Origin: an uncultured Candidatus Saccharibacteria bacterium
Lineage (GTDB): Bacteria; Patescibacteriota; Saccharimonadia; Saccharimonadales; JAGQNJ01
Length of the DNA stretch: 64,000 nt
Assembly: GCA_964493895.1 (NCBI GenBank)
Contig: CAZBPY010000001.1
Span: forward strand, 91,233 to 155,232
Direction: 5' to 3'
Shown here: piece by piece, positions 35,114 to 59,602 of the stretch
Layout: every line of letters begins with the position of its first letter
Numbering within the stretch: position 1 is the first letter of the stretch
Position numbers and translations under genes: made by a program
The notes under the pieces: generated by a model
Seen by the model: only the letters and a program-made list of their open reading frames with translations
What the model was told of the DNA's origin: nothing
Databases searched by the model: none

Positions 35114-35124
35114 ATATACAGCTT

Positions 35125-39500: not shown

Positions 39501-39908
39501 TTAAGCTTCGGTCACCCGCTGCAATACGAAGCGGACGATAACTTGGGCCAAGGCGACGATCACCAAGCCGATGATGGCTCCCAGGATGGTTTGCTTAGCG
39601 CCACTAACTCCGGTAGAGTCACCGCCAGAAGTAATGTACTTAATACCGCCGATGATGATCATGATGACGGCTACCACACCGACGACCAGCGAGAAGATGT
39701 TAATCACGGTCTCGATGATGGTGTTGACTCGTTCGTCAGGATCGTCAATATCACAGTTTCTACTGGTTGTACTTAGGCAGGTACCTCGTCTCAGGCCATC
39801 TTCGATATCTGCTTGGGCGCCTGCTGGTGCAGCCAGCAATGCAGCCGGGGTAAGCATCAGAGTGAGTGCTGCCAAGCTGGCTGCAAGTTGTTTTAGAATT
39901 TTTTTCAT
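39501..39908 (-). CDS. T4SS pilin-like protein (VirB2/TrbC-topology, CPR type), paralog 1
   Basis: Signal peptide (LAASLAALTLMLTPAALLAAPAGAQA), a Cys pair, then the two-helix core VVGVVAVIMIIIGGIKYITSGGDSTGVSGAKQTILGAIIGLVIVALAQVIVRFV. Confidence 0.75.
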   Translation of the reverse strand: MKKILKQLAASLAALTLMLTPAALLAAPAGAQADIEDGLRRGTCLSTTSRNCDIDDPDERVNTIIETVINIFSLVVGVVAVIMIIIGGIKYITSGGDSTGVSGAKQTILGAIIGLVIVALAQVIVRFVLQRVTEA

Positions 39909-39981
39909 TGGTTAGTTTCCTTTCGTTGTTTCTTGATTTTAATCTATCACACGCCTAGCATAACCGCAAGAATCATCACTG

Positions 39982-40353
39982 TCATGATACTCTCTCTAAG
40001 ACAAATCGGACTAGAATCTGAGCCATGGCTACGATTACTAGGCCAATCAAAGCGTATAAGATGGTGTTTTTGGCATTATTTACGCCAGTCGAGTCACCTC
40101 CGGACAAAACATAACGGAGGCCGCCGATGATGATCATAATAACAGCCGCTATCCCGACAACCCAACTGAGTATATTTATAACCAACCGGATTATCTCTTG
40201 GACATTGGGACCGCTGCTGGCTCGGCCGGTGGCATTGACACCCTGCCTAACATTTTGAACCGGGCTTTGGGCAGCAACTGAAACTGGTGCCAGAATCGGG
40301 ATACTCAATAATAGGCTGGCTGATAGCATGACAAGGGTCAAAAGTTTACGCAT
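39982..40353 (-). CDS. T4SS pilin-like protein, paralog 2
   Basis: Signal peptide and the core WVVGIAAVIMIIIGGLRYVLSGGDSTGVNNAKNTILYALIGLVIVAMAQILVRFV. Confidence 0.75.
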   Translation of the reverse strand: MRKLLTLVMLSASLLLSIPILAPVSVAAQSPVQNVRQGVNATGRASSGPNVQEIIRLVINILSWVVGIAAVIMIIIGGLRYVLSGGDSTGVNNAKNTILYALIGLVIVAMAQILVRFVLERVS

Positions 40354-40357
40354 GTTT

Positions 40358-40753
40358 TTATAGTCTCCTTAAAACAAATAATACCAGGGCCTGAGCCATT
40401 ACCGCAATGGCCACCCCAATCAAAGCGTATAAGATGGTGTTTTTGGCATTATTTACGCCGGCTGTGTCACCTTCGGACAAAACATAACGGAGACCGCCGA
40501 TGATGATCATAATAACAGCCGCTACCCCGACAACCCAGCCAAGAATCTCGATAGCCCGCGTCAATAGTCCCTCTGGACCGGTGATTGGGTTTTCGTCTGA
40601 AGCTTTACAGGCCGAGGCTTGGGGCGTTCGACGACAAACGACTTCCAAGGGATCGCCTTGGGCAAGGGCCGGCGCTGGCACAAGGCCGCCCAGGCCAACG
40701 CCAACAAAGCTTATCATCAGAAAAGCGACTGCGGCGGTAATTAAGCGCCTCAT
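40358..40753 (-). CDS. T4SS pilin-like protein, paralog 3
   Basis: Start set to ATG 40753 (MRRLITAAVAFLM), which forms an ATGA overlap with the paralog 4 stop. The core is nearly identical to paralog 2. Confidence 0.75.
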   Translation of the reverse strand: MRRLITAAVAFLMISFVGVGLGGLVPAPALAQGDPLEVVCRRTPQASACKASDENPITGPEGLLTRAIEILGWVVGVAAVIMIIIGGLRYVLSEGDTAGVNNAKNTILYALIGVAIAVMAQALVLFVLRRL

Positions 40754-41046
40754 GAGAAAGCTCTCCCAAGTACAAATTGGACAATTGCCCACGCTAAAAC
40801 TGCCACGACCAGGCCTATGACAGCGTAAATTATAGTGTCTTTAGCACGAGCGGTTTTCTGGGGGTCACCGGCCGACAACACGTACTGCAGAGCGGCCACC
40901 GTAATCACCAAGACTGCAATTGAACCAAGGATAATAAAAGTTAGCGACAAGACATCGGCCAGTCTCTCGGATACAAAGCCACCGGAAACCCGCTTGTTAG
41001 GCAGATTAACGTCTCTGGTGTTGATTTGAGCTAGAAGTCGTATCAT
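40750..41046 (-). CDS. T4SS pilin-like protein, paralog 4 (core only, no obvious signal peptide)
   Basis: Core LGSIAVLVITVAALQYVLSAGDPQKTARAKDTIIYAVIGLVVAVLAWAIVQFV. TAATG overlap with the paralog 5 stop. Confidence 0.7.
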   Translation of the reverse strand: MIRLLAQINTRDVNLPNKRVSGGFVSERLADVLSLTFIILGSIAVLVITVAALQYVLSAGDPQKTARAKDTIIYAVIGLVVAVLAWAIVQFVLGRAFS

Positions 41047-41495
41047 TATGCCACCAATCTTGTTGAAATAAATCGAACTAGTCCCGAAGCAATTATAGCA
41101 ATTGCCACACCGATAACGGCGTTAATTATGGCATCCTTGGCTTTGGCCGTTTCGTCCGGATTGCCCTGGCTAAGTACATAGCGGAATCCGCCAACAATGA
41201 TAAAGGCGATGGCTACAATGCCGGCTATGAACAATAGGATTTCAATTAAAGCCAAGCCGATTGACAGAAAGGACATCAGCTTGCCCACTTCAAAGTCCAT
41301 CACTAAACGGCACTTGTTGGCCGGATCTCTTTGCCCCTCGAGATATTTGTACCAAGTCGGAACGCCAAATCTTGAGGTCGGCAATTTGCAAGAGTCGCCG
41401 GCTCTGGCCATAGCCACAGAAGACATAGCTACTACTGGCACCAGGAAGCCCACTGTGAACATTATTAGTATTGCTAGACGCCTCATCCGTTTCAT
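41046..41495 (-). CDS. T4SS pilin-like protein, paralog 5
   Basis: Start set to ATG 41495 (MKRMRRLAILIMF; TAATG overlap with the paralog 6 stop). Signal peptide, a Cys pair, and the core IAGIVAIAFIIVGGFRYVLSQGNPDETAKAKDAIINAVIGVAIAIIASGLVRFI. Confidence 0.75.
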   Translation of the reverse strand: MKRMRRLAILIMFTVGFLVPVVAMSSVAMARAGDSCKLPTSRFGVPTWYKYLEGQRDPANKCRLVMDFEVGKLMSFLSIGLALIEILLFIAGIVAIAFIIVGGFRYVLSQGNPDETAKAKDAIINAVIGVAIAIIASGLVRFISTRLVA

Positions 41496-42139
41496 TATGT
41501 CAAACCTCCTGGAATTAGCCATTGTAATACCACGAACAACATGAAGTAAGCGATTAGGGCAATCATAGCATTGACTATTCTTTTTTTAGATTCGGCTGCT
41601 TGTTGGGGGTTGCCGCCAGAACTGCTGTACTGAATTCCGGCAATAATTATCACGGCAATAACTACAATCCCCACTAAAGCGCTGAGGATATTAATGACTA
41701 GTTTGGCCAGAATGACAATTGGATTACGATTAATACATCTTTGGCTAGCATTACAGTTAGCGATGGCTTCGCGGTTGGGGTTGGTAAGGCTTTGGGCGGC
41801 TCGCCGGTCTTCGTTTCTCTGTTGAAAGGCATCTAGCGCATCGGGGCCTTGAACCACGGCTGCATAATTGCGGCATATGAAGCTGTCTAGGGCGTAGGAT
41901 TGAACCCCAAACTGAGTTCGTACGTAACACTTATCATCCTCAGGACCCCTGCCAGTGGCGGCTACGATGTGAGCCCGGATTGAACTACAATCCACAGCTA
42001 CGGTTTGGGGATCTTGCTGGATAGGGCCTTGGAGTTTATAGCACACTGGTGGCGCAGCTGAGGCTGGCGACGCCAGGAATGCTCCAAGCCAAAAAACATT
42101 CACCAATATCAGGCCTAGAATATAGTGAAGTCTTTTCAT
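41495..42139 (-). CDS. T4SS pilin-like protein, paralog 6 (long Cys-rich ectodomain)
   Basis: Signal peptide, an approximately 120-aa region with 8 Cys, then the core LVGIVVIAVIIIAGIQYSSSGGNPQQAAESKKRIVNAMIALIAYFMLFVVLQWL. ATGA overlap with the upstream gene. Confidence 0.7.
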   Translation of the reverse strand: MKRLHYILGLILVNVFWLGAFLASPASAAPPVCYKLQGPIQQDPQTVAVDCSSIRAHIVAATGRGPEDDKCYVRTQFGVQSYALDSFICRNYAAVVQGPDALDAFQQRNEDRRAAQSLTNPNREAIANCNASQRCINRNPIVILAKLVINILSALVGIVVIAVIIIAGIQYSSSGGNPQQAAESKKRIVNAMIALIAYFMLFVVLQWLIPGGLT

Positions 42140-42708
42140 TCGGAGTCCACCAGCTGATAATTAAAAATCTTGACTGACTCGCCTTCGGAATTCATGTTGA
42201 AGGCCATATCGATGACGTCAACGCCTTCGAGAACCGGGCAGGCCACCACCACCCGCGGCTCTTCATCACCAACTTCGACGTCCAGAATGGTTTTGGTATC
42301 GTCAATGTCGCAGGCACCTAGGTTCAGCCCCTTCAGAAGCGGTACTGCTTCATTAATAAACACGTCGCGTTCAATTCCGCCCTGCGGATCAATGTAAGTG
42401 TCGTAAGCTTCTTCGTATTTATCTTGCTGGACCAGTTCAAAAAACTTTTTGATAGTTTCCTGCTCGGTAGGGGCTGTAGGCTGATCAGTTTCCTGCCGAG
42501 TTGTCACTTGTTCTTCATTAACATTACTAGAAGTCGAAAACAACATGCCAGCAATCAGCAGTATTATTGTAATCACCACCAACACAAGCAAAATTATTAG
42601 CTTTTTGCTCATTTTCTTTTTGCCGGCATTTGGCCCCGGGTCATCTTGGTTAACAATAAAATCAAAATTCGGAGCTGGCTTTTGATTGGTGCCTGATGGT
42701 GTTTCCAT
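42136..42708 (-). CDS. Bitopic membrane protein, candidate VirB8-like (TM helix plus a small putative NTF2-like domain)
   Basis: Cytoplasmic N-terminus with the FDFIVNQ motif, TM helix LIILLVLVVITIILLIAGMLF, a linker, and a roughly 110-aa domain starting IKKFFELVQQDKYEEAYDTYI. It is the first gene of the pilin operon. The fold assignment is inference only. Confidence 0.4.
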   Translation of the reverse strand: METPSGTNQKPAPNFDFIVNQDDPGPNAGKKKMSKKLIILLVLVVITIILLIAGMLFSTSSNVNEEQVTTRQETDQPTAPTEQETIKKFFELVQQDKYEEAYDTYIDPQGGIERDVFINEAVPLLKGLNLGACDIDDTKTILDVEVGDEEPRVVVACPVLEGVDVIDMAFNMNSEGESVKIFNYQLVDSE

Positions 42709-43966: not shown

Positions 43967-45769
43967 ATGTTTGATGCTTATACCGTCAAAAAAGTCCTGC
44001 CGCGCCTAGCCATTGCCGTGATTTTAATCCAGCTATCTTGGTTTATTTTCACTGGCATGATCACACTGACGACTGCTATCGCCTATGGTGTGGAGGGGCT
44101 GATTTATTCTCCGTTCGGCGGATCGGGTGAATTTACCCTTTCAGCATTACTGGGTGCAGCAACTCCATCGGCTGGAATAACCGGCGGCGGAAACGGTTTG
44201 TTCTTCTATGCAGCGGTTGCAGGCGGGGCTGGACTAGCACTCTTCGGAGGACTGGGGGTAATTCTAAGCCTGGTAGCCACAGCCTTTATTGCCATTTTAA
44301 TGGGTTTTGCTCTTCTGATGTTCCGACAGATTCTAATTGTTGCTTTATTGTTAATTTCCCCCATTGCATTGGTTGCCTGGATCCTGCCCAATACTGAAAA
44401 GCTTTGGAAAATGTGGTGGGAAAGCTTTAGTAAGTTACTAATAGTGTTTCCCATGATTGTTGCCCTGATTGCAGTTGGTCGAGTGTTTGCCTTCCTGACC
44501 TCTGGTGTTCGTCCGGGCGAAGCCGCCGACAACCTGTTGAGTGACATAGGTGTTGACACTATTATACGGTTGGTATTTGTCGTCCTTGGATTCTTTGGGC
44601 CTTACTTCTTGATTCCAAAGCTGTTTGTCCTAGCCGGCAGCGCCTTCGCCTTCTTTGCCGGTATGGCCAATGATCGCAGCCGCGGCGTCTTTGATCGACT
44701 CAAGAAGGGCCGCCAGCAGACAGCAGCCAAAAAACTTCAAGATCTGAGAACAGGTGAAAGATTTAAGGAGCGTACCCGGTTCGGAAGTAGGCTAAATGCT
44801 ATCAGCCGAGGAGTTGCCACTGGCCCGCGCGGACGTTTCGGGCTTGGACAAAGAGGGAATGCGGCTACAAGTAATGTGACTAGCCAGGCAGCCGATGCTT
44901 TTAAGCAAACTGATACATTCAAAACAAATGCCAATAATGACCCCTTGTTGCAAGCCTTGGCATCGGGAAGTAGCCATGGCGAAGCTGTTAGAAATCTCCA
45001 GCGAACTTTCGGATATAGTGAGGCAGAAGCACAGCGCTTGGCTAGAGAGGCTGGTGCGGTGTTCGGGGGATTCTCACAAGCTAAGCAGGTCGCTGCTGCT
45101 GAACAGTTAGTTGCAACCGGTACCGGCTACTCTAACAATCGACAGATGGTGGAGACGCTTGCAACTGCCTCCGGAGGCAACACAGCCCTTGCCAGTCGCT
45201 TGTCGGGTTATAGTAATGCGACGGCTAAACAGGTGGGGCGATTTGATTTGGCTCCTGGTTTTACCCACCTTAACGACTTGGTGCATCGTGAAGCGGGAAT
45301 TGCCGGATCTTATGGAATGCGTGGTCGGGAAGAAGATGGAGGGGGTGAAAATGCCACAGGTGATCTTAACGCCGCCCCAACTGAGGCTGAGTATGTAACG
45401 GCACGAGTTGAGGGATCAAGAGCCGGCGATCCGGTTACCCTGTTGCGTGGTAAAACCCCGCAGGTTACAGAACTTATGGAGTCGCTTGAGCGGGATATTG
45501 GAAGGAGTTACGCCGTACTTCAGGATCCCGCCTCTACAATCGATGACCGTCAGGCCGCCCAGGCCAAGATTGATAGAGCTAGCCAACAGGCTCATTTACT
45601 GCATAGAAATGTTGAGTTGGGATATGCAAGTGACGCCAACGCTGAAGTGGTTCGACAGTTTATGGGAAGAATGAGTGGAGTTCTTACTGAATCTAGAGTA
45701 CCAGCCCATACACCAGACCCTGATAGCCCCCTGATAACACCGCCAAGTGACGGTACACCAGGAGCATAA
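43967..45769 (+). CDS. VirB6/TrbL-like polytopic inner-membrane channel component
   Basis: About 6-7 TM helices in the first 260 aa, then a 340-aa hydrophilic C-terminal region. Located immediately upstream of the VirB3-like and VirB4 genes, as in Gram-positive T4SS loci. Confidence 0.6.
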   Translation: MFDAYTVKKVLPRLAIAVILIQLSWFIFTGMITLTTAIAYGVEGLIYSPFGGSGEFTLSALLGAATPSAGITGGGNGLFFYAAVAGGAGLALFGGLGVILSLVATAFIAILMGFALLMFRQILIVALLLISPIALVAWILPNTEKLWKMWWESFSKLLIVFPMIVALIAVGRVFAFLTSGVRPGEAADNLLSDIGVDTIIRLVFVVLGFFGPYFLIPKLFVLAGSAFAFFAGMANDRSRGVFDRLKKGRQQTAAKKLQDLRTGERFKERTRFGSRLNAISRGVATGPRGRFGLGQRGNAATSNVTSQAADAFKQTDTFKTNANNDPLLQALASGSSHGEAVRNLQRTFGYSEAEAQRLAREAGAVFGGFSQAKQVAAAEQLVATGTGYSNNRQMVETLATASGGNTALASRLSGYSNATAKQVGRFDLAPGFTHLNDLVHREAGIAGSYGMRGREEDGGGENATGDLNAAPTEAEYVTARVEGSRAGDPVTLLRGKTPQVTELMESLERDIGRSYAVLQDPASTIDDRQAAQAKIDRASQQAHLLHRNVELGYASDANAEVVRQFMGRMSGVLTESRVPAHTPDPDSPLITPPSDGTPGA

Positions 45770-45780
45770 GAGGTTAAATT

Positions 45781-46662
45781 ATGGCCCAGTACAAAGTACT
45801 CCAAGACATTGAAGCTGAAGATAAACTGCTTGGTCCGCTGACTCTGCGGCAGTTTATATATGCCGCTATTGTGGTTGGATTGGGTGTGGTGGCTTGGCAA
45901 CTGGCCCGGGTTCAGTGGCTGTTGATAATACCGTTTATTCCTCCGATTGTTTTTTTTGGTTTGTTGGCAGCACCATTCGGGCGTGATCAGTCTTCAGAAG
46001 TGTGGTTGTTGGCCAAAATTAGGTATTGGGTGTTTCCGCGAAAGAGAATTTGGAACCAAGATGGACTACAAAATCTAGTAACGGTTTCTGCTCCAAAAGT
46101 TGTTGAGAAACATAGAACCAAGGATTTTGACAAAGATGAAGCCAAAAGTCGTCTCAAGGCCCTGGCAGCCACCATGGACAGCCGCGGCTGGGCTATTAAA
46201 AATGTTAACGCTCCAGGCTATCACACAGCTATGCAGCAGGGTTCAAGCGATAGGTTATTGCAGCTAGATGTGGTGCCGCAAGAGGATTTAGCGGCCGTCA
46301 AACCTGATGCTGATGTTCTGGATCCGAACGGCACGCCGTTGGCTCAATCTATTGCTAGTCAGCAAACTCAAAATGAACAGGCTCATCGGCAGGCTATTTT
46401 GCAAAAAATGCAAGATATTAGCACTCAGCAAAAGGCAGCCCAGGCCAATTTGCCGGCATTGCCGGCGGCTCCGGTGACCAGAGCAGCACCTAAACCAGCT
46501 CCAGCCCCTGTTAGTGCCCAGCCTTTGCAGCCGGTGACACAGCCCCAGGCGCCTGCTATACTGAAAGAAGTCAAGTCACCAAAACCGGCATCAGAGTTGC
46601 GGCCTCAAGAGATCGCTAAAAATGATGACGAGCCTGACGAAGTAGTTATTTCATTGCACTAG
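45781..46662 (+). CDS. PrgI/VirB3-like small membrane protein with Pro/Ala/Gln-rich C-terminal extension
   Basis: N-terminus YKVLQDIEAEDKLLGPLTLRQFIYAAIVVGLGVVAW plus a second TM helix matches the PrgI-family pattern. Confidence 0.65.
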   Translation: MAQYKVLQDIEAEDKLLGPLTLRQFIYAAIVVGLGVVAWQLARVQWLLIIPFIPPIVFFGLLAAPFGRDQSSEVWLLAKIRYWVFPRKRIWNQDGLQNLVTVSAPKVVEKHRTKDFDKDEAKSRLKALAATMDSRGWAIKNVNAPGYHTAMQQGSSDRLLQLDVVPQEDLAAVKPDADVLDPNGTPLAQSIASQQTQNEQAHRQAILQKMQDISTQQKAAQANLPALPAAPVTRAAPKPAPAPVSAQPLQPVTQPQAPAILKEVKSPKPASELRPQEIAKNDDEPDEVVISLH

Positions 46663-46703: not shown

Positions 46704-47678
46704 ATGAATCCATCAGACCAACAATCACCACAAACACCGGCACCTGGCCAACCAGCAGCGGCGCCCCAACCAGCACCGCAAATGCCGCCAGCGCCCCAAG
46801 CCTCAGGGCCAATCCCGCAACCACAACCGGTAGCCAATTTACCTCTCCCAACTCAACCTCAGGCCCAAGTACCAATACCGACTGCAGCTGCCTCAGCTCA
46901 AGCAGCGCCTGCCGCCCAGGCCGGCGGTAAAAGTGCTAAACCAAAATCCAATCCTACCAGCACCCAAAATATGCTGCAAATTGCCGAAATCCGTGATGGT
47001 ATTGTCATTATGGAGGATGGTTCGTTCAGATCGGTCGTGATGCTTAAATCGATTAACTTTGATCTGATGAGCCCGCAGGAACGTGAAGGAGTCGAAACCG
47101 GCTATCAGGCGTTCTTAAACTCGCTGTACTTCCCGATTCAGATTTTCGTCCGCTCGCAAAAGGTTGATATCCGACCATATATAGAAAAACTAGACAAAAT
47201 CCGCAGCGAGCAAGATAACATGCTGTTGGCGCTGTTAATGGAGGATTACATTAATTACATCGGTGAGCTGTCGACTCAAACCAACATCATGGACAAGACT
47301 TTTTACATTGTGATTCCGTTTTTCCCTAAGGCTGATGTCCAAAAAGCCATCACTCAAAGTAAGAACTTTTTCAGCGGTCTCAGTGGGATTTTCGGCAAGA
47401 AAGCCGATTCGGCGATTCGCGTCAACGAAAAAGACCTGGAAGACGCCAAGATCGAACTTCGCAACCGAGTCCAGGCAGTTTTGGGCGGTCTTCAACACTG
47501 TAGTGTACCTGGGGTGCCGCTTGATACTCAGGAACTTATCGAGCTTTACTATGATTTCTACAACCCTGATACAGCCACTCGTCAGCAGCTGAAAAGTTTT
47601 GAGGATCTGGGCGCCACGGTGATAACCAAAGGCCAAGGACAGGCTCCGCAACCCCACCTAGATAAGGAGTTGGTCTAG
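46704..47678 (+). CDS. VirB4 N-terminal-domain-like protein (separate cistron, same frame as the VirB4 ATPase)
   Basis: After a 90-aa Pro/Gln/Ala-rich tract comes LQIAEIRDGIVIMEDGSFRSVVMLKSINFDLMSPQEREGVETGYQAFLNSLYFPIQIFVRSQKVDIRPYIEKL. This is the pattern found at the extreme N-terminus of single-chain Gram-positive VirB4/TcpF/Orf16-type ATPases. Confidence 0.6.
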   Translation: MNPSDQQSPQTPAPGQPAAAPQPAPQMPPAPQASGPIPQPQPVANLPLPTQPQAQVPIPTAAASAQAAPAAQAGGKSAKPKSNPTSTQNMLQIAEIRDGIVIMEDGSFRSVVMLKSINFDLMSPQEREGVETGYQAFLNSLYFPIQIFVRSQKVDIRPYIEKLDKIRSEQDNMLLALLMEDYINYIGELSTQTNIMDKTFYIVIPFFPKADVQKAITQSKNFFSGLSGIFGKKADSAIRVNEKDLEDAKIELRNRVQAVLGGLQHCSVPGVPLDTQELIELYYDFYNPDTATRQQLKSFEDLGATVITKGQGQAPQPHLDKELV

Positions 47679-49622
47679 ATGGCTTTGTTTGGGGATAAAA
47701 AAGCCGTTACTGATCCGGTAGCCTTGGCTGAGGCACAGCGCCGGCGGGAACAGGCCGAAGTTAGCGAAGCCTTTCAAAAGGGTGTCACCGCTTTACGCGA
47801 TTTCATTGCGCCTAGCTCTGTCGAGCTCAATAGTCGTTATTTCCAAATCGGCACCCGATTGGCTAGAACATTTTATGTTTTTGGTTATCCTAGAACTCTG
47901 AATACTGGCTGGCTCAGCAGCATCATTAATATCGATGAAATCCTTGACTTGTCGATGTTTATTTATCCGGTAGAAAGCCAGGTAGTCCTGGAGAATCTGC
48001 GCAAGAAAGTCAGCCAATTGGAAGCTGGAATTCAAATTGATGCTGAAAAGGGCCGGGTTCGAGATCCGGGCAAGCAGGCCACCATTGTCGACGCCGAAGA
48101 GATGCGCGATAAATTACAGGTTGGTGAAGAACGCTTCTTCCGGCTGGGCTTTTACTTCACGATTTACGCCGACAGCATAGACGAGTTGGACTTCGTGACT
48201 CACAAAGTTGAGTCAATGTTGGGCCAGCAGTTAGTCTACTCCAAGGCTGCTACCTCTCAACAAGAACAAGGCTTAGCCAGTACCGTACCGCAGTTCATGG
48301 ACCAACTGCAGATTCGTCGTAATATGAGCACCGGCGCCCTGTCGACCAGCTTCCCATTCACCAGTGCTGATCTTAGCCAAGATGACGGAATCTTGTATGG
48401 CATCAACATGCACAATTCCGGTCTGGTAATATTTGACCGCTTTTCATTGGAGAACGGCAACTCGGTAGTGTTTGCTAAGTCCGGGGCCGGTAAGTCATTC
48501 GCTGTCAAGCTGGAGGCCCTGCGCAGCATGATGTTCGGCACCGAAATTGTGATTATCGACCCGGAAAATGAATACCAAAGAATGGCCGAAGCTGTCGGCG
48601 GCGCCTATGTCCGGCTGAGCCTAAACTCAGCCACCCGAATCAACCCGTTTGACCTGCCGAAGGTAGTCGATACCGAAGAAGCCGATAACGCTCTGCGCAG
48701 TAACTTGATTACCTTGCACGGATTATTGCGTCTAATGATGGGCGGGGCTCAGGCTCAAATGGCAGCTAGTTCGGTATCTGGAGGAGCTGTCGCTCCAGCT
48801 CTGACCCCGGTCGAAGAAGCTGACCTTGATGCGGCCCTGATTGAAACTTATGCCAAAGCCGGTATCACTAACGACCCTCTGACCCACAACTCGCCGCCGC
48901 CGACAATTGCTGATCTGTATGATACCCTGCTGCATATGGGCAACACCGGTCCGCAACTGGCTCAGCGGTTGCGTAAATACACCACAGGCACCTTTGCCGG
49001 CATTTTCTCGCAGCAGTCCAACATCAGCATTGATAACCAGATGGTGGTGTTTAACATTCGTGACCTTGAGGATGAGCTGCGTCCGGTAGCTATGTACATT
49101 GTGCTTAACTATATCTGGAATACTACCAAGTCTGATCAAAAGCGCCGGATGCTGATTGTTGACGAAGCCTGGCAGCTTATGAAGTATGAAGATTCAGCTA
49201 ATTTTATGTTTTCTTTAGCTAAGCGAGCCCGTAAGTATAACTTAGGTATCACTACAATTTCTCAGGATGTTGAAGACTTTATCGCCTCTAGGATGGGGCG
49301 GGCAATTGTAGCTAACGCTTCCATGCAATTGCTTTTGAAGCAGTCCCCGGCAGCAGTAGATCTGCTGGCTGAAGTGTTTAAACTCACCAGTGAAGAGACA
49401 GCCCGTTTGACCCAATTTCCGGTTGGCCAAGGTCTATTCTTTGCCGGCCAAAACCATGTCCATATTCAAGTGATAGCCAGCCCGACAGAGACTAGTCTGA
49501 TCACCACTAACCCCGGTGAGAATATTCCACCAGTCACCGGCGAGATTAACGAAACTCAGCCGCAAGGAACAATAAATTTGGGAGGCCAAGGTCTGGGTAA
49601 CCTGGGTGTGGCCGGGTTATAA
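47679..49622 (+). CDS. virB4: VirB4-family T4SS ATPase
   Basis: Walker A VFAKSGAGKSFAVK. Walker B RRMLIVDEAWQLM. Middle-domain pattern FIAPSSVELNSRYFQIGTRLARTFYVFGYPRTLNTGWL. AAGGAG lies 9 nt upstream of the ATG. Confidence 0.9.
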   Translation: MALFGDKKAVTDPVALAEAQRRREQAEVSEAFQKGVTALRDFIAPSSVELNSRYFQIGTRLARTFYVFGYPRTLNTGWLSSIINIDEILDLSMFIYPVESQVVLENLRKKVSQLEAGIQIDAEKGRVRDPGKQATIVDAEEMRDKLQVGEERFFRLGFYFTIYADSIDELDFVTHKVESMLGQQLVYSKAATSQQEQGLASTVPQFMDQLQIRRNMSTGALSTSFPFTSADLSQDDGILYGINMHNSGLVIFDRFSLENGNSVVFAKSGAGKSFAVKLEALRSMMFGTEIVIIDPENEYQRMAEAVGGAYVRLSLNSATRINPFDLPKVVDTEEADNALRSNLITLHGLLRLMMGGAQAQMAASSVSGGAVAPALTPVEEADLDAALIETYAKAGITNDPLTHNSPPPTIADLYDTLLHMGNTGPQLAQRLRKYTTGTFAGIFSQQSNISIDNQMVVFNIRDLEDELRPVAMYIVLNYIWNTTKSDQKRRMLIVDEAWQLMKYEDSANFMFSLAKRARKYNLGITTISQDVEDFIASRMGRAIVANASMQLLLKQSPAAVDLLAEVFKLTSEETARLTQFPVGQGLFFAGQNHVHIQVIASPTETSLITTNPGENIPPVTGEINETQPQGTINLGGQGLGNLGVAGL

Positions 49623-52478: not shown

Positions 52479-53645
52479 ATGAAGCGAATTGTTGCAGTAT
52501 TACTACTAGTTGTTTTGGCCGTCGGCCTGACAAGTACGCACCCGCCGGTCGCTCAAGCGCTAAGTGCTGAGCAAGTTCGGATATTAAGTGGTGGAATCTA
52601 CGCCTTTGATTACGAGACTGAAAGCGATAGTTGCGGCCATCTCTCGGGAGATGATATACAGGCCCTAATCTTCAACAATCTTATTGGCAAGATAGTCCAT
52701 GGAAAAGAACTAAAGGATTTTCAGGCCGCCGGAATCATGGGTAATATCTGGGCTGAGTCTGGGTATCAGCCTCAGCGACTGCAAGGCACACCTTCTGGTA
52801 CAGAAACACCGGCTGATAAGGCGGAACAATCGTCGTTGGGTTGGGGTCTAGTGCAATGGACACCGGCCGGAAAGATGATTACCCCCACAAAGGCTGCCGG
52901 TAAAGACCCGAATGATCCGGTTGTTCAAATTGACTTTCTCATCGGACTACTAAACGGTGAGGGGCTCGACGGAGAAGCTGGTGAATTGCTGGTCAATACA
53001 ACAAATGTTGCCGATGCCACATTAATATTTGAGACCAAATACGAGCGCCACGCCGGGCCGCCGCAGCCGGATCGGGTAGTTGAAGCTCAACGTGTTCTCG
53101 ATGAGGTGGCTGCCTCGGCCTCCGAGAGCGGAGGCTGCGGCGGCAGTGGGCTGTCGGAAACCACCCTTAAGTACGCCTGGGAAGACCCCCACGACCCGCC
53201 TTATATCCAAGCCAAAGAGGCCTACACCCAGGCCATAGCGGAAGCCGACGCAGCCGGGCAGTATGTTGGTGGCGGACCACATCCTGGAATTGACTGTGGC
53301 GGCTGGGTGACAAGGTTGATGATTGATAGCGGCTTTGAACCAAATTACAACTTCGGTGGAGTGGAGGCCAACGGAGCAGCTAACGTGGCTGATGGACAAA
53401 CTCCATGGCTACAGGCTAACTGGGATAAGATTACGATTACCGGGACTCAAGACCTACGGCCTGGCGATGTGGCAATTAATACCGGTCGCACGCACACCTT
53501 TGCTTTTGTGGGAGATATACCAGGTTTCAACTCCAGTATTGCTTCAGCTTCTTTTAGTAGAAATGGAAGAGGCTGGCGTGCTCCAATGGCCGGCAAAGAA
53601 AATCCATTAAAAAGTGATATAGAATGGTATAGGAAGCGACAATAA
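52479..53645 (+). CDS. Secreted bifunctional peptidoglycan hydrolase (phage-tail-lysozyme-like domain plus NlpC/P60- or CHAP-like cysteine peptidase domain)
   Basis: Signal peptide. AAGIMGNIWAESGYQPQRLQ...WGLVQWTPAGK...QIDFLIGLL (lysozyme-like). C-terminal GIDCGGWVTRLM ... PGDVAINTGRTHTFAFVG (Cys/His peptidase). Confidence 0.7.
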   Translation: MKRIVAVLLLVVLAVGLTSTHPPVAQALSAEQVRILSGGIYAFDYETESDSCGHLSGDDIQALIFNNLIGKIVHGKELKDFQAAGIMGNIWAESGYQPQRLQGTPSGTETPADKAEQSSLGWGLVQWTPAGKMITPTKAAGKDPNDPVVQIDFLIGLLNGEGLDGEAGELLVNTTNVADATLIFETKYERHAGPPQPDRVVEAQRVLDEVAASASESGGCGGSGLSETTLKYAWEDPHDPPYIQAKEAYTQAIAEADAAGQYVGGGPHPGIDCGGWVTRLMIDSGFEPNYNFGGVEANGAANVADGQTPWLQANWDKITITGTQDLRPGDVAINTGRTHTFAFVGDIPGFNSSIASASFSRNGRGWRAPMAGKENPLKSDIEWYRKRQ

Positions 53646-54306: not shown

Positions 54307-54982
54307 GTTTATAGCTGCAATCGTTAATCACCCAATTCGCACTGCTGTAGTGGTGATTCTAATAATCGGTGGTTTTGCGGCTTGGCGGTTCTGGCCTCGT
54401 TACTACAACCTAAGCATTGAGGTTGAGACATCAGTGCCGGGCTATGAGGTGCAGGTGTTTAGTGGCGCTTCGAATGATTCAGGTGAGCCGATTGTTAAAA
54501 CGACTGAAAGCCAGACTTTCTCCTTAAGATCTGGGGAGTACGTGGTCGTTGGCGGCACAGCGCCGGATTTTTCTCCCACAAGCCAGACAATTGCTTTAAA
54601 CGAAGATATATCGATCAGTACCAGACCGGTCTACTCGGATTTGAAGCTATCTAACATGCTAGACAGCGAGCTGCCAGCTATCCAGCAAGCCATACGTTCG
54701 TCCGTCTCAGGGTTTAGCGATGAATACAAACTTGGCCGAGGGCGTCTGTACGATCTTGGTCAATGGTACGGCACAATCATTTACCCGAATCTTTCGGCCG
54801 AGCAGTTGAGGGTTCAATACGTCGATGTTTTTCGCCTGGTGATGAAAAAGGAAGGGGGTAAGTGGACTCTAGCCACTAACCCACCTAGACTTGTTCTTGG
54901 TCAGCCCAATTATCCCAACATTCCATTTGAAGTCTTAAATAATACCAACAACCAACTGTTGCCGGGTGCTAACTCAGACTGA
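54299..54982 (+). CDS. Membrane-anchored hypothetical protein (last gene of the T4SS-like operon)
   Basis: Start set to GTG 54299, 6 nt after AGGAGG (54287..54292). TM helix TAVVVILIIGGFAAW. It has a beta-rich domain resembling that of the preceding gene. Confidence 0.55.
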   Translation: MNRFIAAIVNHPIRTAVVVILIIGGFAAWRFWPRYYNLSIEVETSVPGYEVQVFSGASNDSGEPIVKTTESQTFSLRSGEYVVVGGTAPDFSPTSQTIALNEDISISTRPVYSDLKLSNMLDSELPAIQQAIRSSVSGFSDEYKLGRGRLYDLGQWYGTIIYPNLSAEQLRVQYVDVFRLVMKKEGGKWTLATNPPRLVLGQPNYPNIPFEVLNNTNNQLLPGANSD

Positions 54983-56042
54983 TTAGCCTTGTGCTGCGAG
55001 TAAAGCGCTTGCTGACTACATCAGCGTCAGTGGTTGTAATGAAGCTTTGGTAGTTCCGTATGAAGGCCGTAAGAGCTTTGCGGCGTTTGCCGTCTAGTTC
55101 GCTAAAGACATCGTCCAGCAATAATAGAGGTTTTTGGTCGCGGTGTTCTTCTAGTAGTTGGGTTTCTTGGACCTTCAGGGCCAGCAGGGTGGTCCGAGTC
55201 TCACCCCTAGAGGCATGGTGATAAATCGGGATTTTATTTATCTCAATAGCGATATCGTCTCGGTGCGGGCCGATGCCGGTAAAGCCGCGAGCTAGGTCTT
55301 TTTCTAGTGATTTTTCAAGTTTTTTTAACATTTGGCTGGCATACTGAGAGGGGGCCAACGTTGACAAATATGACAGGGTAACTTGATGCTTTTTGTCGGC
55401 TAGCTGGCTGTAGCTGTGGCTTATTCCCCGGTTAAGTCTATTCAACAAAGCGTGGCGTTTGGCAGCAATTTGCCCGCCCAAGTCGCTTAGACGGATGTTC
55501 CAGGCAAATATTGATTCCTTAGCAGCCGAGGTTCCGGTTTTTAACAACCGGTTGCGTTGAGCCAAGACCCGGTTATAATCACGTTGTTGGCGACTGAACT
55601 CCGGGTGGGTTTGGCTTAGAATCGAATCGATAAATTGCCGCCGGCGTTCCGGAGAAGTGGTTAAGGACTGAAGGTTGTCTGGCTCAAATAAAACCACCGG
55701 GATAGTGTCCTCGAGGCCGAGCCGTTTTTTAGGATAATCGTCAATAATAAATTCTTTGCGGACAACTTCATTTCCAGACGCAGCGGTGTCTAGTTGCAAT
55801 TTTATGATCCGGGTTTGGTTAGTGGCCGTAGCGCCGTCTAGGCGGGCCCAGGTGGCTTTGTAGCGAATATTTTCACGGTCTAGGGCTCGAAATGGTGAGC
55901 CGATGCAGATATAGACCAAGCCTTCTAAAATATTGGTTTTACCGCTGGCGTTGGGACCAATAATAATATTAACACCGTCATTGAATTCAAAAGAGGCATC
56001 CTTATATGAGCGAAAATTCTGCAGCCGCAGACTGGAAATCAT
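54969..56042 (-). CDS. recF: DNA replication/repair protein RecF
   Basis: LRLQNFRSYKDASFEF..GVNIIIGPNASGKTNILEGL (Walker A). Signature LLLLDDVFSELD. Confidence 0.92.
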   Translation of the reverse strand: MISSLRLQNFRSYKDASFEFNDGVNIIIGPNASGKTNILEGLVYICIGSPFRALDRENIRYKATWARLDGATATNQTRIIKLQLDTAASGNEVVRKEFIIDDYPKKRLGLEDTIPVVLFEPDNLQSLTTSPERRRQFIDSILSQTHPEFSRQQRDYNRVLAQRNRLLKTGTSAAKESIFAWNIRLSDLGGQIAAKRHALLNRLNRGISHSYSQLADKKHQVTLSYLSTLAPSQYASQMLKKLEKSLEKDLARGFTGIGPHRDDIAIEINKIPIYHHASRGETRTTLLALKVQETQLLEEHRDQKPLLLLDDVFSELDGKRRKALTAFIRNYQSFITTTDADVVSKRFTRSTRLISLS

Positions 56043-56063
56043 ATCTATCTTAGTTTAGCAGCC

Positions 56064-57161
56064 CTAACTCTTTAGCGGCATGACTATGTGAACATAATCC
56101 GGCTGCTGGGGGCTTCTTAGGGCGACTGGTTGAAGCTTTTCATTAAAACCGATTGTTACTGTCTCACCGTCCAGAGCATTGATAGCATCCAGCAAAAAGC
56201 GGGCGTTAAGTGTAATCTCGCCGTCAGCGGTGACTTTGGCACTACTGCTGGCGGTGTTCTCACCAATTTGTGAGGCTACTGATTGGATGTCGAGGGTTTG
56301 CTTTTCCTGGTTGGTGCGGACGATGATGCTGCCGGCGCTGGCTCGGGCAAATAGGCTGGAAACTTTAGTGATGGAAATTAGTTCGGTTTTTGGCAAGGTA
56401 GCCTCGACAGCAAATTCAGTTGGAATCAGCTTTTGATAAGCCGGATATTCACCTTCTATCAGCCTGGCGATTAGCTCTGTATCAGCCGTTTCAAAGCGAA
56501 CCTGTTGAGAGTCTTGGGTGATGTTAACCTGGCTTGATTCGTTGGCATCACTAATTATCCGCAAAATGTCATGAGCGGCTGTAGCCGGCAGGATGAAAGG
56601 CTCCATCTTTTTACCGTTGGCTAGCTTTTTCTCAGCCAGTCGGTAACTGTCGGTAGCGGCTATGTAGAGGTTGTTATCAACAGTTTGGAAAAAGACTCCG
56701 GTTAGAACTGGCCGGGCCTCATCGGTCGACGCAGCCACTACGACTTGTTGAATGGCCGACTTCAGTTGGCCAGCGCTGATTTTCCAGTTTTGGCCGTTTT
56801 TAATAACTGGCATGACCGGAAACTCTTCGGCACTAATTCCATTAATGGTTGAATTGTGGTTTTCGGTGGTTACGTGAAGTTTGTTATCCTCTTGTTTTAA
56901 GCGAATAGTGGTATCGGGCAGGTTGGCCACAAAATCTTGCAGCAAGCGGGCGGGTATAGTCAGAGTTCCGGGTTTGCTAACTTTAGCGCCAACTAGGGTG
57001 TTAATGGCGATGTCTAAATTTGTAGCGGACAGACGAAGTTGATTGTTGTCAACATTTAGTAAGATGTTACTCAGTACCGGCAGGGTACTTTTGTTAGTGG
57101 CAACCCTGGCGACAATGGCTAGGGCTTTGTGAAGATTAGCTTGGGTGACTTTAATATCCAT
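56064..57161 (-). CDS. dnaN: DNA polymerase III beta sliding clamp
   Basis: 365 aa with the typical three-domain clamp pattern (LPVLSNILL, ATDSYRLA, PDYVHIVMPLK). Confidence 0.93.
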   Translation of the reverse strand: MDIKVTQANLHKALAIVARVATNKSTLPVLSNILLNVDNNQLRLSATNLDIAINTLVGAKVSKPGTLTIPARLLQDFVANLPDTTIRLKQEDNKLHVTTENHNSTINGISAEEFPVMPVIKNGQNWKISAGQLKSAIQQVVVAASTDEARPVLTGVFFQTVDNNLYIAATDSYRLAEKKLANGKKMEPFILPATAAHDILRIISDANESSQVNITQDSQQVRFETADTELIARLIEGEYPAYQKLIPTEFAVEATLPKTELISITKVSSLFARASAGSIIVRTNQEKQTLDIQSVASQIGENTASSSAKVTADGEITLNARFLLDAINALDGETVTIGFNEKLQPVALRSPQQPDYVHIVMPLKS

Positions 57162-57394
57162 AATTATTAAAACCTTTCTTTAAATTCCTTATTTCATTAA
57201 TTAAGCCTGTGGGTTGTGTGTAAAAAGTTGATTTAACAGTGGCCAGTTCGACCAGATCGGTTGTGTAAAAAGCCCGGAAAAAACTGTCTAAAAGCTTGGC
57301 ATTTTCAAAACCTGAAACTTGGCAAAGCCACAAACCTTCCACAAAAAACTGACGGCTTTTACGCACCATTTCCACAACCAAAACACAAATATTT
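57162..57394. other. dnaA-dnaN spacer with DnaA-box-like 9-mers (second part of a candidate bipartite oriC)
   Basis: TGTGTAAAA at 57217..57225 and 57262..57270, both inside a repeated GGTTGTGT(GT)AAAAAG motif. ATTTCCACA at 57368..57376. cCTTCCACA at 57335..57343. AT-rich. Confidence 0.5.
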
Positions 57395-58753
57395 TTAAGC
57401 ATACAACCGCCCTTTTATATCGTTAAGCGCTGATTTCACAAGGTTGTCAACCGCGGCCTCGCGCTCGATTTTATCAACCGAGTGAATAGCCGTAGTGTGA
57501 TCTTTGCGACCCAGCTCCTTAGCAATTTTAGGAAAACTCAGATGCAACTCACTGCGCATCAAATACATAGCCACTTGGCGCGGCAGAACAATGTCCTTAT
57601 CACGTTTAGGACCGAGTATTTCATCAACAGATACCGAGAAGTACCTGGCGGTTCGCTCGACAATTTGTTTTGGTGAAATATGCTTAGGGCGGGACCGATG
57701 CGAACCAAGAACCGATTTAGCCAGCGGAACATCCGGATCGACACTCTTTACTTCACAGACGGCAATTAGCTGGTTCAAGGCCCCCTCTAGTTCACGAATA
57801 TTATTTCGAAGATTGTTAGCCAAAAACTCGACCACGTCAGTTGGCAGCTCCATACCTTGGGCGGCGGCCTTGGTCTGGACAATCGCACAACGGGTTTCGT
57901 AATCAGGAATTTGCATGTCAACGCTCATGCCCTGCATAAAGCGCGATTTCAACCGGTCCTCCAGACCATCAATTTCATTGGGCGGCCGGTCGCTGCTGAT
58001 GATTATTTGTTTATTAGCCTGTTGAAGTGCATTGAAAGTGTGAAAGAATTCCTCTAGAGTTTTCTCTTTGCCGGCAAAAAACTGAACATCGTCGATTATC
58101 AAAACATCGCTAGACCGATAAAAGTTAGCAAATTCGGTGTTCTTTTTATAGCGCACCGCATCGATGAATTCTTGGGTGAACTGTTCACTGGTCACATAGG
58201 TAACTTTAGACTTTGGGTTTTTTTCCAAAACAGCGTTGCCAACAGCCTGCATCAGATGAGTTTTGCCGATACCGACTCCGCCATAAAGTGATAGCGGGTT
58301 ATATTTTGTTCCCGGACTGGCCGCTGCACCCTGGGCTGCAGCATAGGCCAGTTCGTTACTAGATCCGACCACAAAATTTTCAAAAGTAAAGTTTTCCCTT
58401 AACCCCTGCCGATAAGAATGAGCCAGACTGTTAGTTTTCGGACCAGCAGCAGCTTTAGCTTCTGGCAGCATCACCACGTCATCGGAGATTTTCTGATTGG
58501 TTTTAGGTGTCGGCACACCTTTGTACTGAATTTGTTTGGGCTTTACCCCTTGATTCGCTAGAGCCTCCAGAATTAAAGGTTTGAACTTCAATTCAAGTTG
58601 CTGAGAGATAAACACATTCGGTACACCAATTACCAAAGTTTCTTTGTCATAGCGCAGCAACTGAGTGTTCTTAAACCAAGTAGAAAAATTTCCGGCTGAA
58701 ACCGAGAGCTCTATTTCGCCGAGGACGGCTTGCCAGAGGCGGTCGTCATGCAT
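57395..58753 (-). CDS. dnaA: Chromosomal replication initiator DnaA
   Basis: AAA+ Walker A GGVGIGKTHLMQA. Box VII/sensor motifs. C-terminal DNA-binding helix DHTTAIHSVDKI. Confidence 0.96.
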   Translation of the reverse strand: MHDDRLWQAVLGEIELSVSAGNFSTWFKNTQLLRYDKETLVIGVPNVFISQQLELKFKPLILEALANQGVKPKQIQYKGVPTPKTNQKISDDVVMLPEAKAAAGPKTNSLAHSYRQGLRENFTFENFVVGSSNELAYAAAQGAAASPGTKYNPLSLYGGVGIGKTHLMQAVGNAVLEKNPKSKVTYVTSEQFTQEFIDAVRYKKNTEFANFYRSSDVLIIDDVQFFAGKEKTLEEFFHTFNALQQANKQIIISSDRPPNEIDGLEDRLKSRFMQGMSVDMQIPDYETRCAIVQTKAAAQGMELPTDVVEFLANNLRNNIRELEGALNQLIAVCEVKSVDPDVPLAKSVLGSHRSRPKHISPKQIVERTARYFSVSVDEILGPKRDKDIVLPRQVAMYLMRSELHLSFPKIAKELGRKDHTTAIHSVDKIEREAAVDNLVKSALNDIKGRLYA

Positions 58754-59150: not shown

Positions 59151-59165
59151 AGGAACAGTCATAAA

Positions 59166-59507: not shown

Positions 59508-59602
59508 AAAACGCCCCAAAAACTGCTAGTATAAAAGCAGGCCTGAATCCGGTCTTATTAAGCGGCATATGAAAAGCGCGCACCCGGCCTGAAGGAGGAA
59601 AC

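What the first reader, a model, noticed from the sequence alone, without database searches (positions are those of the whole stretch)
46704..49622. VirB4 encoded as two same-frame cistrons separated by a single TAG
Seen in sequence:
- ORF 46704..47678 and ORF 47679..49622 are in the same reading frame. Only one stop codon separates them: ...KELV TAG ATG ALFGDKK.
- The first product carries the segment LQIAEIRDGIVIMEDGSFRSVVMLKSINFDLMSPQEREG...FPIQIFVRSQKVDIRPYIEKL. In the Gram-positive VirB4 homologs I remember (TcpF and Tn916 Orf16 types), this segment is the extreme N-terminus of the same polypeptide that continues into the ..FYVFGYPR..GWL.. domain and the Walker A/B ATPase.
- An AAGGAG Shine-Dalgarno (47664..47669) lies 9 nt before the second ATG. 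The split could therefore be a functional two-cistron arrangement.
- The first product also has a 90-aa Pro/Gln/Ala-rich N-terminal tract. The preceding PrgI-like protein ends in a similar tract.

Inference: there are three possibilities. It may be a genuine fission of VirB4 into an N-domain subunit and an ATPase subunit. It may be a recent nonsense mutation. Or it may be a sequencing error.
Basis: partly seen in the sequence, partly recalled or inferred. Interest (0 to 1): 0.6.

Follow-up and report, generated by a model that had tools for sequence, protein, structure and literature searches.

The report
Known TrsD-like plus VirB4 gene pair
The two back-to-back genes are the normal, already published arrangement in Saccharibacteria, in which the front piece of the VirB4 secretion motor is made as its own small protein (TrsD-like) just before the ATPase; it is neither a mutation nor a sequencing error.

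Summary
ORF A (46704..47678, 324 aa) and ORF B (47679..49622, 647 aa) share a frame. TAG abuts ATG, and AAGGAG lies 9 nt upstream.

A is homologous to the N-terminal part of VirB4, by HMM and fold matches and by colinearity with full-length profiles. B is a CD1110-family VirB4 ATPase that lacks that part.

The split is neither recent nor an error:
- All 78 informative Saccharibacteria/Patescibacteria genomes examined have two ORFs.
- 41 of them use a TAATG overlap.
- 68 have B in a different frame from A, so the shared frame here is incidental.
- A Shine-Dalgarno core precedes B in 62 of 78, which suggests translational coupling.
- The same split, at the same position, occurs on Bacillota plasmids (TrsD plus a short VirB4).
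- A Berkelbacteria clade carries the two parts fused through a hypervariable linker.

The pair is already published. Quinonero-Coronel et al. 2025 (PMC12102498) report TrsD, remotely homologous to the VirB4 N-terminus, as the most abundant Patescibacteria T4SS component. It usually lies next to virB4 and is essential in Southlakia epibionticum.

The locus is the chromosomal, oriC-proximal Saccharibacteria T4SS.

Verdict: real, ordinary for this lineage, already known, low interest.

The parts
46704..47678 (+). ORF A, 324 aa: TrsD-like / TraC-like protein, a stand-alone homologue of the first part of the VirB4 N-terminal domain
   Evidence: NCBIfam TrsD E 2e-6; CD1110 VirB4 profile 2-120; VirB4_plasma; VirB4_CagE 18-134. 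Precomputed PF26593 (TraC-like) on the 100%-identical database protein P0001 and on all 120 listed homologues. The top 10 Foldseek PDB hits of the AF2 model are all TrwK/VirB4.
46704..46958 (+). Pro/Ala/Gln-rich N-terminal tract of A (aa 1-85), probably disordered; length and sequence vary among relatives
   Evidence: Composition. Homologue lengths are 235-373 aa with a poorly conserved N-terminus. No hydrophobic segment (maximum KD hydropathy 0.94).
46959..47675 (+). Conserved core of A (aa 86-324): an alpha/beta domain plus a long helix, followed by an invariant YNPD..RQQL..F tail that is low-confidence when modelled alone
   Evidence: Invariant columns of alignment A1. AF2 pLDDT is 70-87 for core residues 8-121 and 157-200, and below 50 for 201-239.
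47664..47669 (+). AAGGAG Shine-Dalgarno for ORF B, embedded in the last codons of A (..DKEL..)
   Evidence: 62/78 related loci have a GGAG/GAGG/AGGA core within 20 nt upstream of B's start, against 11% background; spacer mode is 8 nt.
47676..47678 (+). TAG stop of A, directly abutting the ATG of B
   Evidence: In relatives the stop of A is TAA in 53, TAG in 14 and TGA in 11. The junction is a TAATG overlap in 41/78.
47679..49622 (+). ORF B, 647 aa: VirB4-like ATPase (CD1110 family) lacking the first ~175 profile positions. Walker A is SGAGKS; Walker B is MLIVDEAW.
   Evidence: NF045971 scores 360.8 bits (cutoff 325), profile 176-734/752. PDB 4ag5 VirB4 C-terminal domain, E 3e-48, residues 231-609. 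Motifs are visible in the translation.
45781..46662 (+). PrgI/VirB3-like membrane protein with a long Ala/Gln/Pro-rich C-terminal tail
   Evidence: Pfam PrgI 40.4 bits (cutoff 27), residues 5-90; composition.
43967..45769 (+). 600-aa polytopic membrane protein in the position of VirB6/PrgH; assigned by position only
   Evidence: No significant family hit. Hydrophobic N-terminal half in the translation. A large protein occupies the same position in the Pontibacillus plasmid locus.
49659..52475 (+). 938-aa protein with a C-terminal VanY-type peptidoglycan peptidase domain (VirB1-role cell-wall hydrolase)
   Evidence: Pfam VanY 41.3 bits (cutoff 25). PMC12102498 notes that peptidase and lysozyme homologues downstream of virB4 are essential in S. 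epibionticum.
52479..53645 (+). 388-aa protein with a lysozyme domain
   Evidence: Pfam Phage_lysozyme2 77.5 bits (cutoff 28.2).
39501..42139 (-). Five VirB2-like T4SS pilin genes, divergently oriented: 39501..39908, 39982..40353, 40358..40792, 41046..41522, 41495..42139
   Evidence: Pfam T4SS_pilin PF18895, 29-49 bits, each above the 26.6 cutoff. NCBIfam Mbov_0395 pilin-like hits.

Best explanation
ORF A and ORF B are the conserved TrsD-like/VirB4 gene pair of the chromosomal type IV secretion system of Saccharibacteria. The first ~170-200 residues of a canonical VirB4 (the TraC-like N-terminal subdomain) are encoded as a separate polypeptide, A. The rest of the N-terminal domain plus the ATPase domain are encoded by B. 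The two genes are transcribed together. B is probably translated by coupling: its Shine-Dalgarno sits in the last codons of A and its start abuts or overlaps A's stop. Inferred, not shown: A and B associate non-covalently to rebuild a VirB4-like motor subunit. The A module would provide the membrane-proximal contacts to the upstream PrgI/VirB3-like protein, as the VirB4 N-terminal domain does in the R388 machine. The in-frame TAG-ATG junction of this genome is one incidental variant of that junction.
For: A is homologous to the VirB4 N-terminus:
- NCBIfam hits to TrsD (E 2e-6), CD1110 VirB4 profile 2-120/752 (E 6e-6), Mbov_0397 VirB4 (E 1e-5) and VirB4_CagE 18-134 (E 2e-3).
- The AF2 model of the A core gives TrwK/VirB4 chains as all top 10 of 350,542 PDB chains, E 8e-4 to 1e-2.

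A and B are colinear with full-length VirB4:
- B starts at CD1110 profile position 176.
- Concatenating A core and B raises scores: CD1110 360.8 to 379.7 bits, VirB4_plasma 238 to 260 bits with one stretch crossing the junction, VirB4_CagE 120.5 to 132.5 bits.

The split is conserved:
- At least 7,868 homologue clusters; the top 120 are all 235-373 aa.
- 149 of the 150 best 50%-identity representatives are stand-alone.
- 78/78 species loci have two ORFs; 41 use a TAATG overlap and 68 have B in a different frame.
- A Shine-Dalgarno core precedes B in 62/78 loci against 11% background.

The same split position occurs on Bacillota plasmids: Pontibacillus 274 aa + 621 aa, and Planococcus 'TrsD' 344 aa + 623 aa.

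Rosetta-stone support: a Berkelbacteria clade of about 68 clusters has A-like and B-like parts in one 820-910 aa protein, joined by a hypervariable linker. Its model aligns end-to-end with TrwK.

Literature:
- PMC12102498 reports 2,272 TrsD homologues in Patescibacteria, 1,664 of them next to virB4, with remote homology to the VirB4 N-terminus. The one in S. epibionticum is essential.
- PMC10633639 reports that the T4SS is essential.

Locus context matches the published system: pilins, PrgI, peptidase, lysozyme, with dnaA/dnaN about 8 kb away.
Against: - Physical association of A with B, and of A with PrgI/VirB3, is not shown. The only model containing both parts (fused relative P0248) has pTM 0.39 and a disordered linker, so domain packing is undetermined.
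- A's score for the curated TrsD model (27.7 bits) is far below its cutoff of 200, so A is a distant relative of the staphylococcal prototype rather than an equivalog.
- The local Pfam copy gave no hit for A.
- Fold matches have modest TM-scores (0.26-0.48).
- Translational coupling is inferred from sequence only.
Confidence: 0.88

Rival explanations
1. A recent nonsense mutation split a formerly single VirB4 gene, making it a pseudogene or a freshly fissioned gene in this genome only.
For: The two ORFs share a frame and are separated by a single TAG. Fused relatives exist in Berkelbacteria.
Against: 78/78 Saccharibacteria/Patescibacteria species loci have two ORFs, and 68 have B in a different frame from A. 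The closest relatives (71-83% identity: L001-L003) have TAA-n-ATG or TAATG junctions. B has its own ATG and Shine-Dalgarno. Both proteins are strongly conserved.
Confidence: 0.01
2. A sequencing or assembly error introduced a false stop at 47676..47678.
For: None beyond the in-frame geometry. Read data are not available here.
Against: The same comparative evidence applies: the split is the family norm in independent assemblies from many projects. The database holds a 324-aa protein 100% identical to A, called as a separate gene (P0001).
Confidence: 0.01
3. Programmed readthrough of the in-frame TAG yields a minor fused A-B product alongside the separate subunits in this organism.
For: TAG is in frame with and immediately followed by B's ATG. 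Natural fusions are evidently functional in Berkelbacteria.
Against: The in-frame arrangement is not conserved: 10/78 loci, below random expectation. No suppressor tRNA was found in the window. TAG is used as a normal stop by the neighbouring gene. No readthrough-promoting context was looked for or seen.
Confidence: 0.03
4. A (TrsD-like) descends from the VirB4 N-terminus but now acts independently of B, for example as a separate scaffold or regulatory T4SS component. It would not reconstitute a VirB4 N-terminal domain.
For: [quoted passage not shown] Some plasmid TrsD proteins carry their own N-terminal transmembrane helices. The model of the fused relative gives no confident A-B packing.
Against: The genes are tightly and probably translationally coupled in 78/78 loci. 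B lacks exactly the segment A supplies. Natural fusions exist. A's invariant C-terminal tail is unstructured when modelled alone, as expected of a partner-binding segment.
Confidence: 0.08

Closest known systems
TrsD homologue + VirB4 of the Patescibacteria T4SS (Quinonero-Coronel et al. 2025, PMC12102498; Ca. Southlakia epibionticum SEML1_0006-0019, Wang et al. 2023, PMC10633639)
   Same: Same lineage (Saccharibacteria). Same gene order around the pair: VirB2-like pilins, VirB6-position protein, PrgI/VirB3, TrsD-like, VirB4, peptidase, lysozyme. Chromosomal and close to dnaA. TrsD-like protein immediately upstream of virB4 and remotely homologous to the VirB4 N-terminus.
   Different: Nothing substantive. 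This genome's junction happens to be in-frame TAG-ATG rather than the commoner TAATG overlap.
TrsD/TrsE of staphylococcal pGO1/pSK41 and TraD/TraE of pIP501 (NCBIfam NF041427 TrsD/TraD family; MPF_FATA pGO1 subclass, Guglielmini et al. 2014, PMC4027160)
   Same: A small protein encoded directly upstream of a short (~620-670 aa) VirB4-like ATPase. The Bacillota plasmid examples examined here (Pontibacillus, Planococcus) are split at the equivalent position.
   Different: The match to the curated TrsD model is weak (27.7 bits against a cutoff of 200). The plasmid proteins examined carry N-terminal transmembrane helices; the window's A instead has a soluble Pro/Ala/Gln-rich tract. Those systems are plasmid conjugation machines with relaxase and coupling protein, whereas this one is a chromosomal, pilin-bearing system. 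The pGO1, pSK41 and pIP501 sequences themselves were not examined here.
Full-length monoderm VirB4 ATPases (CD1110 family NF045971; Mbov_0397 family; PrgJ/TcpF types) and TrwK/VirB4 of R388 (PDB 7o41, 8rtd)
   Same: A followed by B is colinear with these proteins. B contains the rest of the N-terminal domain and the Walker A/B ATPase domain. The A model matches TrwK chains by fold.
   Different: In those proteins the parts form one polypeptide. A gave no hit to the TcpF model. Sequence identity to TrwK is ~10-17%.
Fused TraC-like-VirB4 proteins of Candidatus Berkelbacteria (e.g. P0248; CP066695.1 ORF at L086 2029..4749)
   Same: 34% identity to the A core and 50% to B, in the same order, preceded by a PrgI gene.
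   Different: A single 820-910 aa polypeptide with a 60-100 aa hypervariable Pro/Ala-rich linker where the window has the stop/start junction. No long low-complexity tail on PrgI or at the N-terminus.

Membership tests
TrsD/TraD family (NCBIfam NF041427) / Pfam PF26593 TraC-like | Significant match to the family model | tested here: inconclusive
   NF041427 E 2.1e-6 at 27.7 bits, far below the curated cutoff of 200. The local Pfam copy gave no hit. The protein database's precomputed annotation lists PF26593 (named TraC-like) for the 100%-identical P0001 and for all 120 listed homologues.
TrsD/TraD family | Encoded immediately upstream of, and co-oriented with, a short VirB4-like ATPase gene | tested here: met
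   0-nt gap in the window. Same adjacency in 78/78 related loci and on the Pontibacillus and Planococcus plasmids.
TrsD/TraD family | Remote homology to the N-terminal portion of VirB4 | tested here: met
   Hits to N-terminal positions of three VirB4 profiles. Additive scores, with one stretch crossing the junction, on concatenation. TrwK/VirB4 as the top 10 fold matches.
VirB4-like conjugal transfer ATPase, CD1110 family (NF045971), for ORF B | Score above the curated cutoff | tested here: met
   360.8 bits against a cutoff of 325, although only profile positions 176-734 of 752 are covered.
VirB4 ATPases, for ORF B | Walker A and Walker B motifs and the VirB4 C-terminal domain fold | tested here: met
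   SGAGKS and MLIVDEAW are in the translation. 4ag5 VirB4 C-terminal domain E 3e-48 over residues 231-609. Catalytic activity was not tested.
VirB4 ATPases | Complete N-terminal domain on the same polypeptide | tested here: not met
   B lacks profile positions 1-175. These are supplied by the separate ORF A.
Patescibacteria/Saccharibacteria chromosomal T4SS (PMC12102498, PMC10633639) | Co-located VirB2-like pilins, PrgI/VirB3, TrsD, VirB4, and cell-wall hydrolases downstream | tested here: met
   Five PF18895 pilins, PrgI, VanY peptidase and lysozyme, all above Pfam cutoffs. The VirB6 assignment rests on position only.
Patescibacteria/Saccharibacteria chromosomal T4SS | Location near the replication origin | tested here: met
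   recF-like, dnaN and dnaA at 54969..58753, with yidC at 59603; dnaA is about 8 kb downstream of virB4.
Patescibacteria/Saccharibacteria chromosomal T4SS | Required for epibiotic growth | not testable with these tools
   Reported for Southlakia epibionticum by Tn-seq (PMC10633639; PMC12102498). Not testable for this genome.

The most novel reading that the evidence does not exclude
The split may be functional rather than neutral. Making the N-terminal VirB4 module as a separate protein, with a long disordered Pro/Ala/Gln tail mirrored on PrgI/VirB3, could let it dock at the membrane first and recruit or release the ATPase dynamically. Engagement of the motor, or its stoichiometry, would then be regulated in a T4SS that these epibionts need to live. 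No function has yet been assigned to TrsD experimentally.
Probability: 0.12. Interest if true: 0.45.

Novelty: already known. Interest (0 to 1): 0.12.

Why it matters
For annotation: the pair should be called as two genes (TrsD-like and VirB4), not flagged as a pseudogene or frameshift. The short VirB4 should not be read as truncated.

For biology: the Saccharibacteria T4SS is reported to be essential for the epibiotic lifestyle, and TrsD is its most widespread yet functionally unassigned component. The comparative details gathered here add modest constraints for anyone studying how the split motor assembles:
- The junction is nearly always tightly coupled.
- The split falls in a region that is a hypervariable linker in the fused Berkelbacteria proteins.
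- An invariant YNP(D/E) tail follows the A core.

None of this changes the published picture.

Tried and rejected
2. A mixed alignment of concatenated A+B with separate A-type and B-type rows (A2) appeared misaligned. A-type rows showed 13-18% identity to the concatenated query against the 34-76% reported for them by the representative search. It was abandoned.
3. I modelled the natural fusion P0248 instead. pTM was 0.39 with a disordered linker, so A-B packing could not be read. Foldseek showed only end-to-end colinearity with TrwK at rmsd ~22 A.
4. A PDB sequence search with A found only low-complexity noise.
5. The local Pfam scan of A found nothing.
6. An exact-sequence look-up of A's contig found nothing on record, so the source record was not identified.
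7. I briefly inferred that fused and split forms alternate among very close relatives, because P0336 (582 aa) is 83% identical to the B-like part of the fused P0248. Reading the DNA showed that P0336 is a truncated public gene call inside a 906-aa fused ORF, so I withdrew that inference.
8. The pELF plasmid paper (PMC13492992) was irrelevant; its TraD is a VirD4 homologue.
9. I considered stop-codon reassignment and rejected it. TAG terminates the neighbouring gene, and relatives use TAA, TAG or TGA with frame changes.
Full report
**Observation.**
- ORF A runs 46704..47678 (324 aa) and ends in TAG at 47676..47678.
- ORF B starts with ATG at 47679 and runs to 49622 (647 aa). Both are in the same frame.
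- AAGGAG lies at 47664..47669, 9 nt before B's ATG.
- The first 85 residues of A are 27% Pro, 22% Ala and 16% Gln.
- The upstream PrgI-like protein (45781..46662) ends in a similar Ala/Gln/Pro-rich tail.

**What the two products are.** B is a VirB4-type ATPase.
- It scores 360.8 bits on the NCBIfam CD1110 VirB4 model (cutoff 325), but covers only profile positions 176-734 of 752.
- Residues 231-609 match the solved VirB4 C-terminal domain 4ag5 at E 3e-48.
- Walker A (SGAGKS) and Walker B (MLIVDEAW) are present.

A is homologous to the N-terminal part of VirB4.
- A residues 88-205 match positions 2-120 of the same CD1110 profile.
- A also matches the N-terminal parts of the Mbov_0397 and VirB4_CagE profiles, and the TrsD/TraD family model NF041427, with E values from 2e-6 to 2e-3.
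- These hits are weak taken one at a time, but consistent with each other.
- Joining the A core to B raises the full-length scores: CD1110 360.8 to 379.7 bits, VirB4_CagE 120.5 to 132.5 bits, and Mbov_0397 238 to 260 bits. For Mbov_0397, one aligned stretch crosses the A/B junction.
- An AlphaFold2 model of the A core has mean pLDDT 67; the alpha/beta core and a long helix are confident, and the C-terminal tail is not.
- That model retrieves TrwK/VirB4 chains of the R388 machine as all ten best matches among 350,542 PDB chains, with E 8e-4 to 1e-2 and TM-scores of 0.26-0.48.
- The protein database's precomputed annotation assigns Pfam PF26593 (TraC-like) to the 100%-identical entry P0001 and to all listed homologues. 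My local Pfam copy returned nothing for A.

**Is the split real and old?** It is both.
- A has at least 7,868 homologue clusters, and the 120 best are all 235-373 aa.
- In an exhaustive search of 50%-identity representatives, 149 of the best 150 are stand-alone proteins of 125-478 aa.
- A genome scan returned 80 loci from different Saccharibacteria/Patescibacteria species, at 57-83% identity.
- In all 78 loci that contain both genes, they are separate ORFs.
- 41 loci have a TAATG stop/start overlap.
- B is in A's frame in only 10 loci. Four have the same in-frame stop-abuts-start geometry as the window.
- A's stop is TAA in 53, TAG in 14 and TGA in 11.
- Because most relatives have the genes in different frames, neither a point nonsense mutation nor a base-call error can explain the split. 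The shared frame in this window is incidental.
- A GGAG/GAGG/AGGA core lies within 20 nt of B's start in 62 of 78 loci, against 11% of random 20-mers, with a spacer mode of 8 nt. It sits inside the conserved last codons of A, which points to translational coupling.

**Relatives outside the phylum, and fused forms.**
- Bacillota plasmids carry the same architecture, split at the equivalent position.
  - A Pontibacillus plasmid has a 274-aa hypothetical protein, 31% identical to the full A core. It overlaps a 621-aa CD1110-family VirB4 and is followed by a peptidoglycan endopeptidase.
  - A Planococcus plasmid has a 344-aa protein annotated TrsD, followed by a 623-aa ATPase.
- The one long hit in the representative search, P0248 (898 aa), is a natural fusion.
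  - Residues 13-228 match the A core at 34% identity, and residues 312-886 match B at 50%.
  - It occurs on at least five contigs from several samples, downstream of a PrgI gene.
- P0248 belongs to a clade of about 68 clusters of 820-910 aa, mostly labelled Berkelbacteria.
- In that clade the two parts are joined by a 60-100 residue hypervariable Pro/Ala-rich linker. The split point in the window therefore corresponds to a flexible inter-module region.
- An apparent 'B-only' close relative of this clade (P0336) proved to be a truncated public gene call inside a 906-aa fused ORF. I make no claim about frequent switching between fused and split forms.

**Context.** The pair sits in the typical Saccharibacteria chromosomal T4SS locus.
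- Five VirB2-like pilin genes lie on the minus strand (39501..42139).
- On the plus strand, in order, come a 377-aa unknown protein, a 600-aa polytopic membrane protein in the VirB6 position, PrgI/VirB3, A, B, a 938-aa VanY-domain peptidase and a lysozyme-domain protein.
- recF-like, dnaN and dnaA follow at 54969..58753, so the locus is close to the origin of replication.

**Comparison with the literature.**
- Quinonero-Coronel et al. [quoted passage not shown]
- They report 2,272 homologues, of which 1,664 are associated with VirB4.
[quoted passage not shown] Southlakia epibionticum is essential.
- They note peptidase and lysozyme genes downstream of virB4, and a location near the origin.
- Wang et al. 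2023 (PMC10633639) showed that this T4SS is essential for epibiotic growth.
- The finding is therefore a correct rediscovery of a published, lineage-wide arrangement.

**Mechanism.**
- Shown here:
  - A is homologous to, and colinear with, the start of VirB4.
  - The split and its tight junction are conserved.
  - Natural fusions exist.
- Inferred:
  - B is translated by coupling to A.
  - A and B associate to rebuild a VirB4-like subunit.
  - A provides the membrane-proximal contacts to PrgI/VirB3, by analogy with the N-terminal domain of TrwK/VirB4 in the R388 structures. That analogy rests on my own knowledge of those structures, not on a test made here.
- A's tail after the last confident helix contains invariant residues (YNPDTA.RQQL..F), yet it is low-confidence when modelled alone. 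This fits a partner-binding segment.
- The attempt to see the interface failed. The model of the fused relative has pTM 0.39, and it aligns with TrwK end-to-end only in local-fold order, at rmsd ~22 A.

**Verdict.** The 'genuine fission' reading is supported, and the mutation and error readings are refuted. The same-frame detail is incidental, and the arrangement is already known. Interest is low.

Noticed in passing
window 39501..42139 (- strand): Five consecutive, divergent VirB2-like T4SS pilin genes (PF18895), followed by a 189-aa single-pass membrane protein at 42136..42708. This matches the multi-pilin cluster reported for Southlakia epibionticum.
   Followed up: partly
window 54969..60562: recF-like (54969..56042, -), dnaN (56064..57161, -), dnaA (57395..58753, -) and yidC (59603..60562, +). 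The T4SS locus lies next to the chromosomal replication origin region.
   Followed up: partly
window 37184..38143 (+): A 319-aa ORF with an ART-PolyVal ADP-ribosyltransferase domain (E 6.7e-9, above the Pfam cutoff), about 1.3 kb from the pilin cluster. It is a possible toxin or effector.
   Followed up: no
window 45781..46662 and 46704..46958: Low-complexity Pro/Ala/Gln tracts sit at the C-terminus of PrgI/VirB3 and the N-terminus of the TrsD-like protein. In the fused Berkelbacteria proteins, the PrgI genes are short (130-139 aa), the VirB4 N-terminus has no such tract, and the low-complexity tract lies between the A-like and B-like parts instead.
   Followed up: partly
L082 4620..5654 (Planococcus plasmid NZ_CP019642.1) and L081 5884..6708 (Pontibacillus plasmid): The plasmid TrsD-like proteins carry N-terminal hydrophobic helices: two in Planococcus, which may be a VirB3-like hairpin fused to TrsD, and one in Pontibacillus. 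The window's protein has none.
   Followed up: no
L086 2029..4749 (CP066695.1, Candidatus Berkelbacteria complete genome): The public gene call (P0336, 582 aa, starting at locus position 3001) covers only the 3' two-thirds of a 906-aa uninterrupted ORF that encodes the fused TraC-like-VirB4. The 5' 970 nt are left unannotated.
   Followed up: yes
window 30228..36030: Four tRNA genes: Ser-TGA, Ser-GCT, Arg-GCG and Ser-CGA. None has a CTA anticodon.
   Followed up: no
window 46704..47675 versus Pfam: The local Pfam-A scan gave no hit for ORF A, whereas the protein database's precomputed annotation lists PF26593.2 (TraC-like) for the identical protein. The two copies of Pfam probably differ in version.
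   Followed up: no
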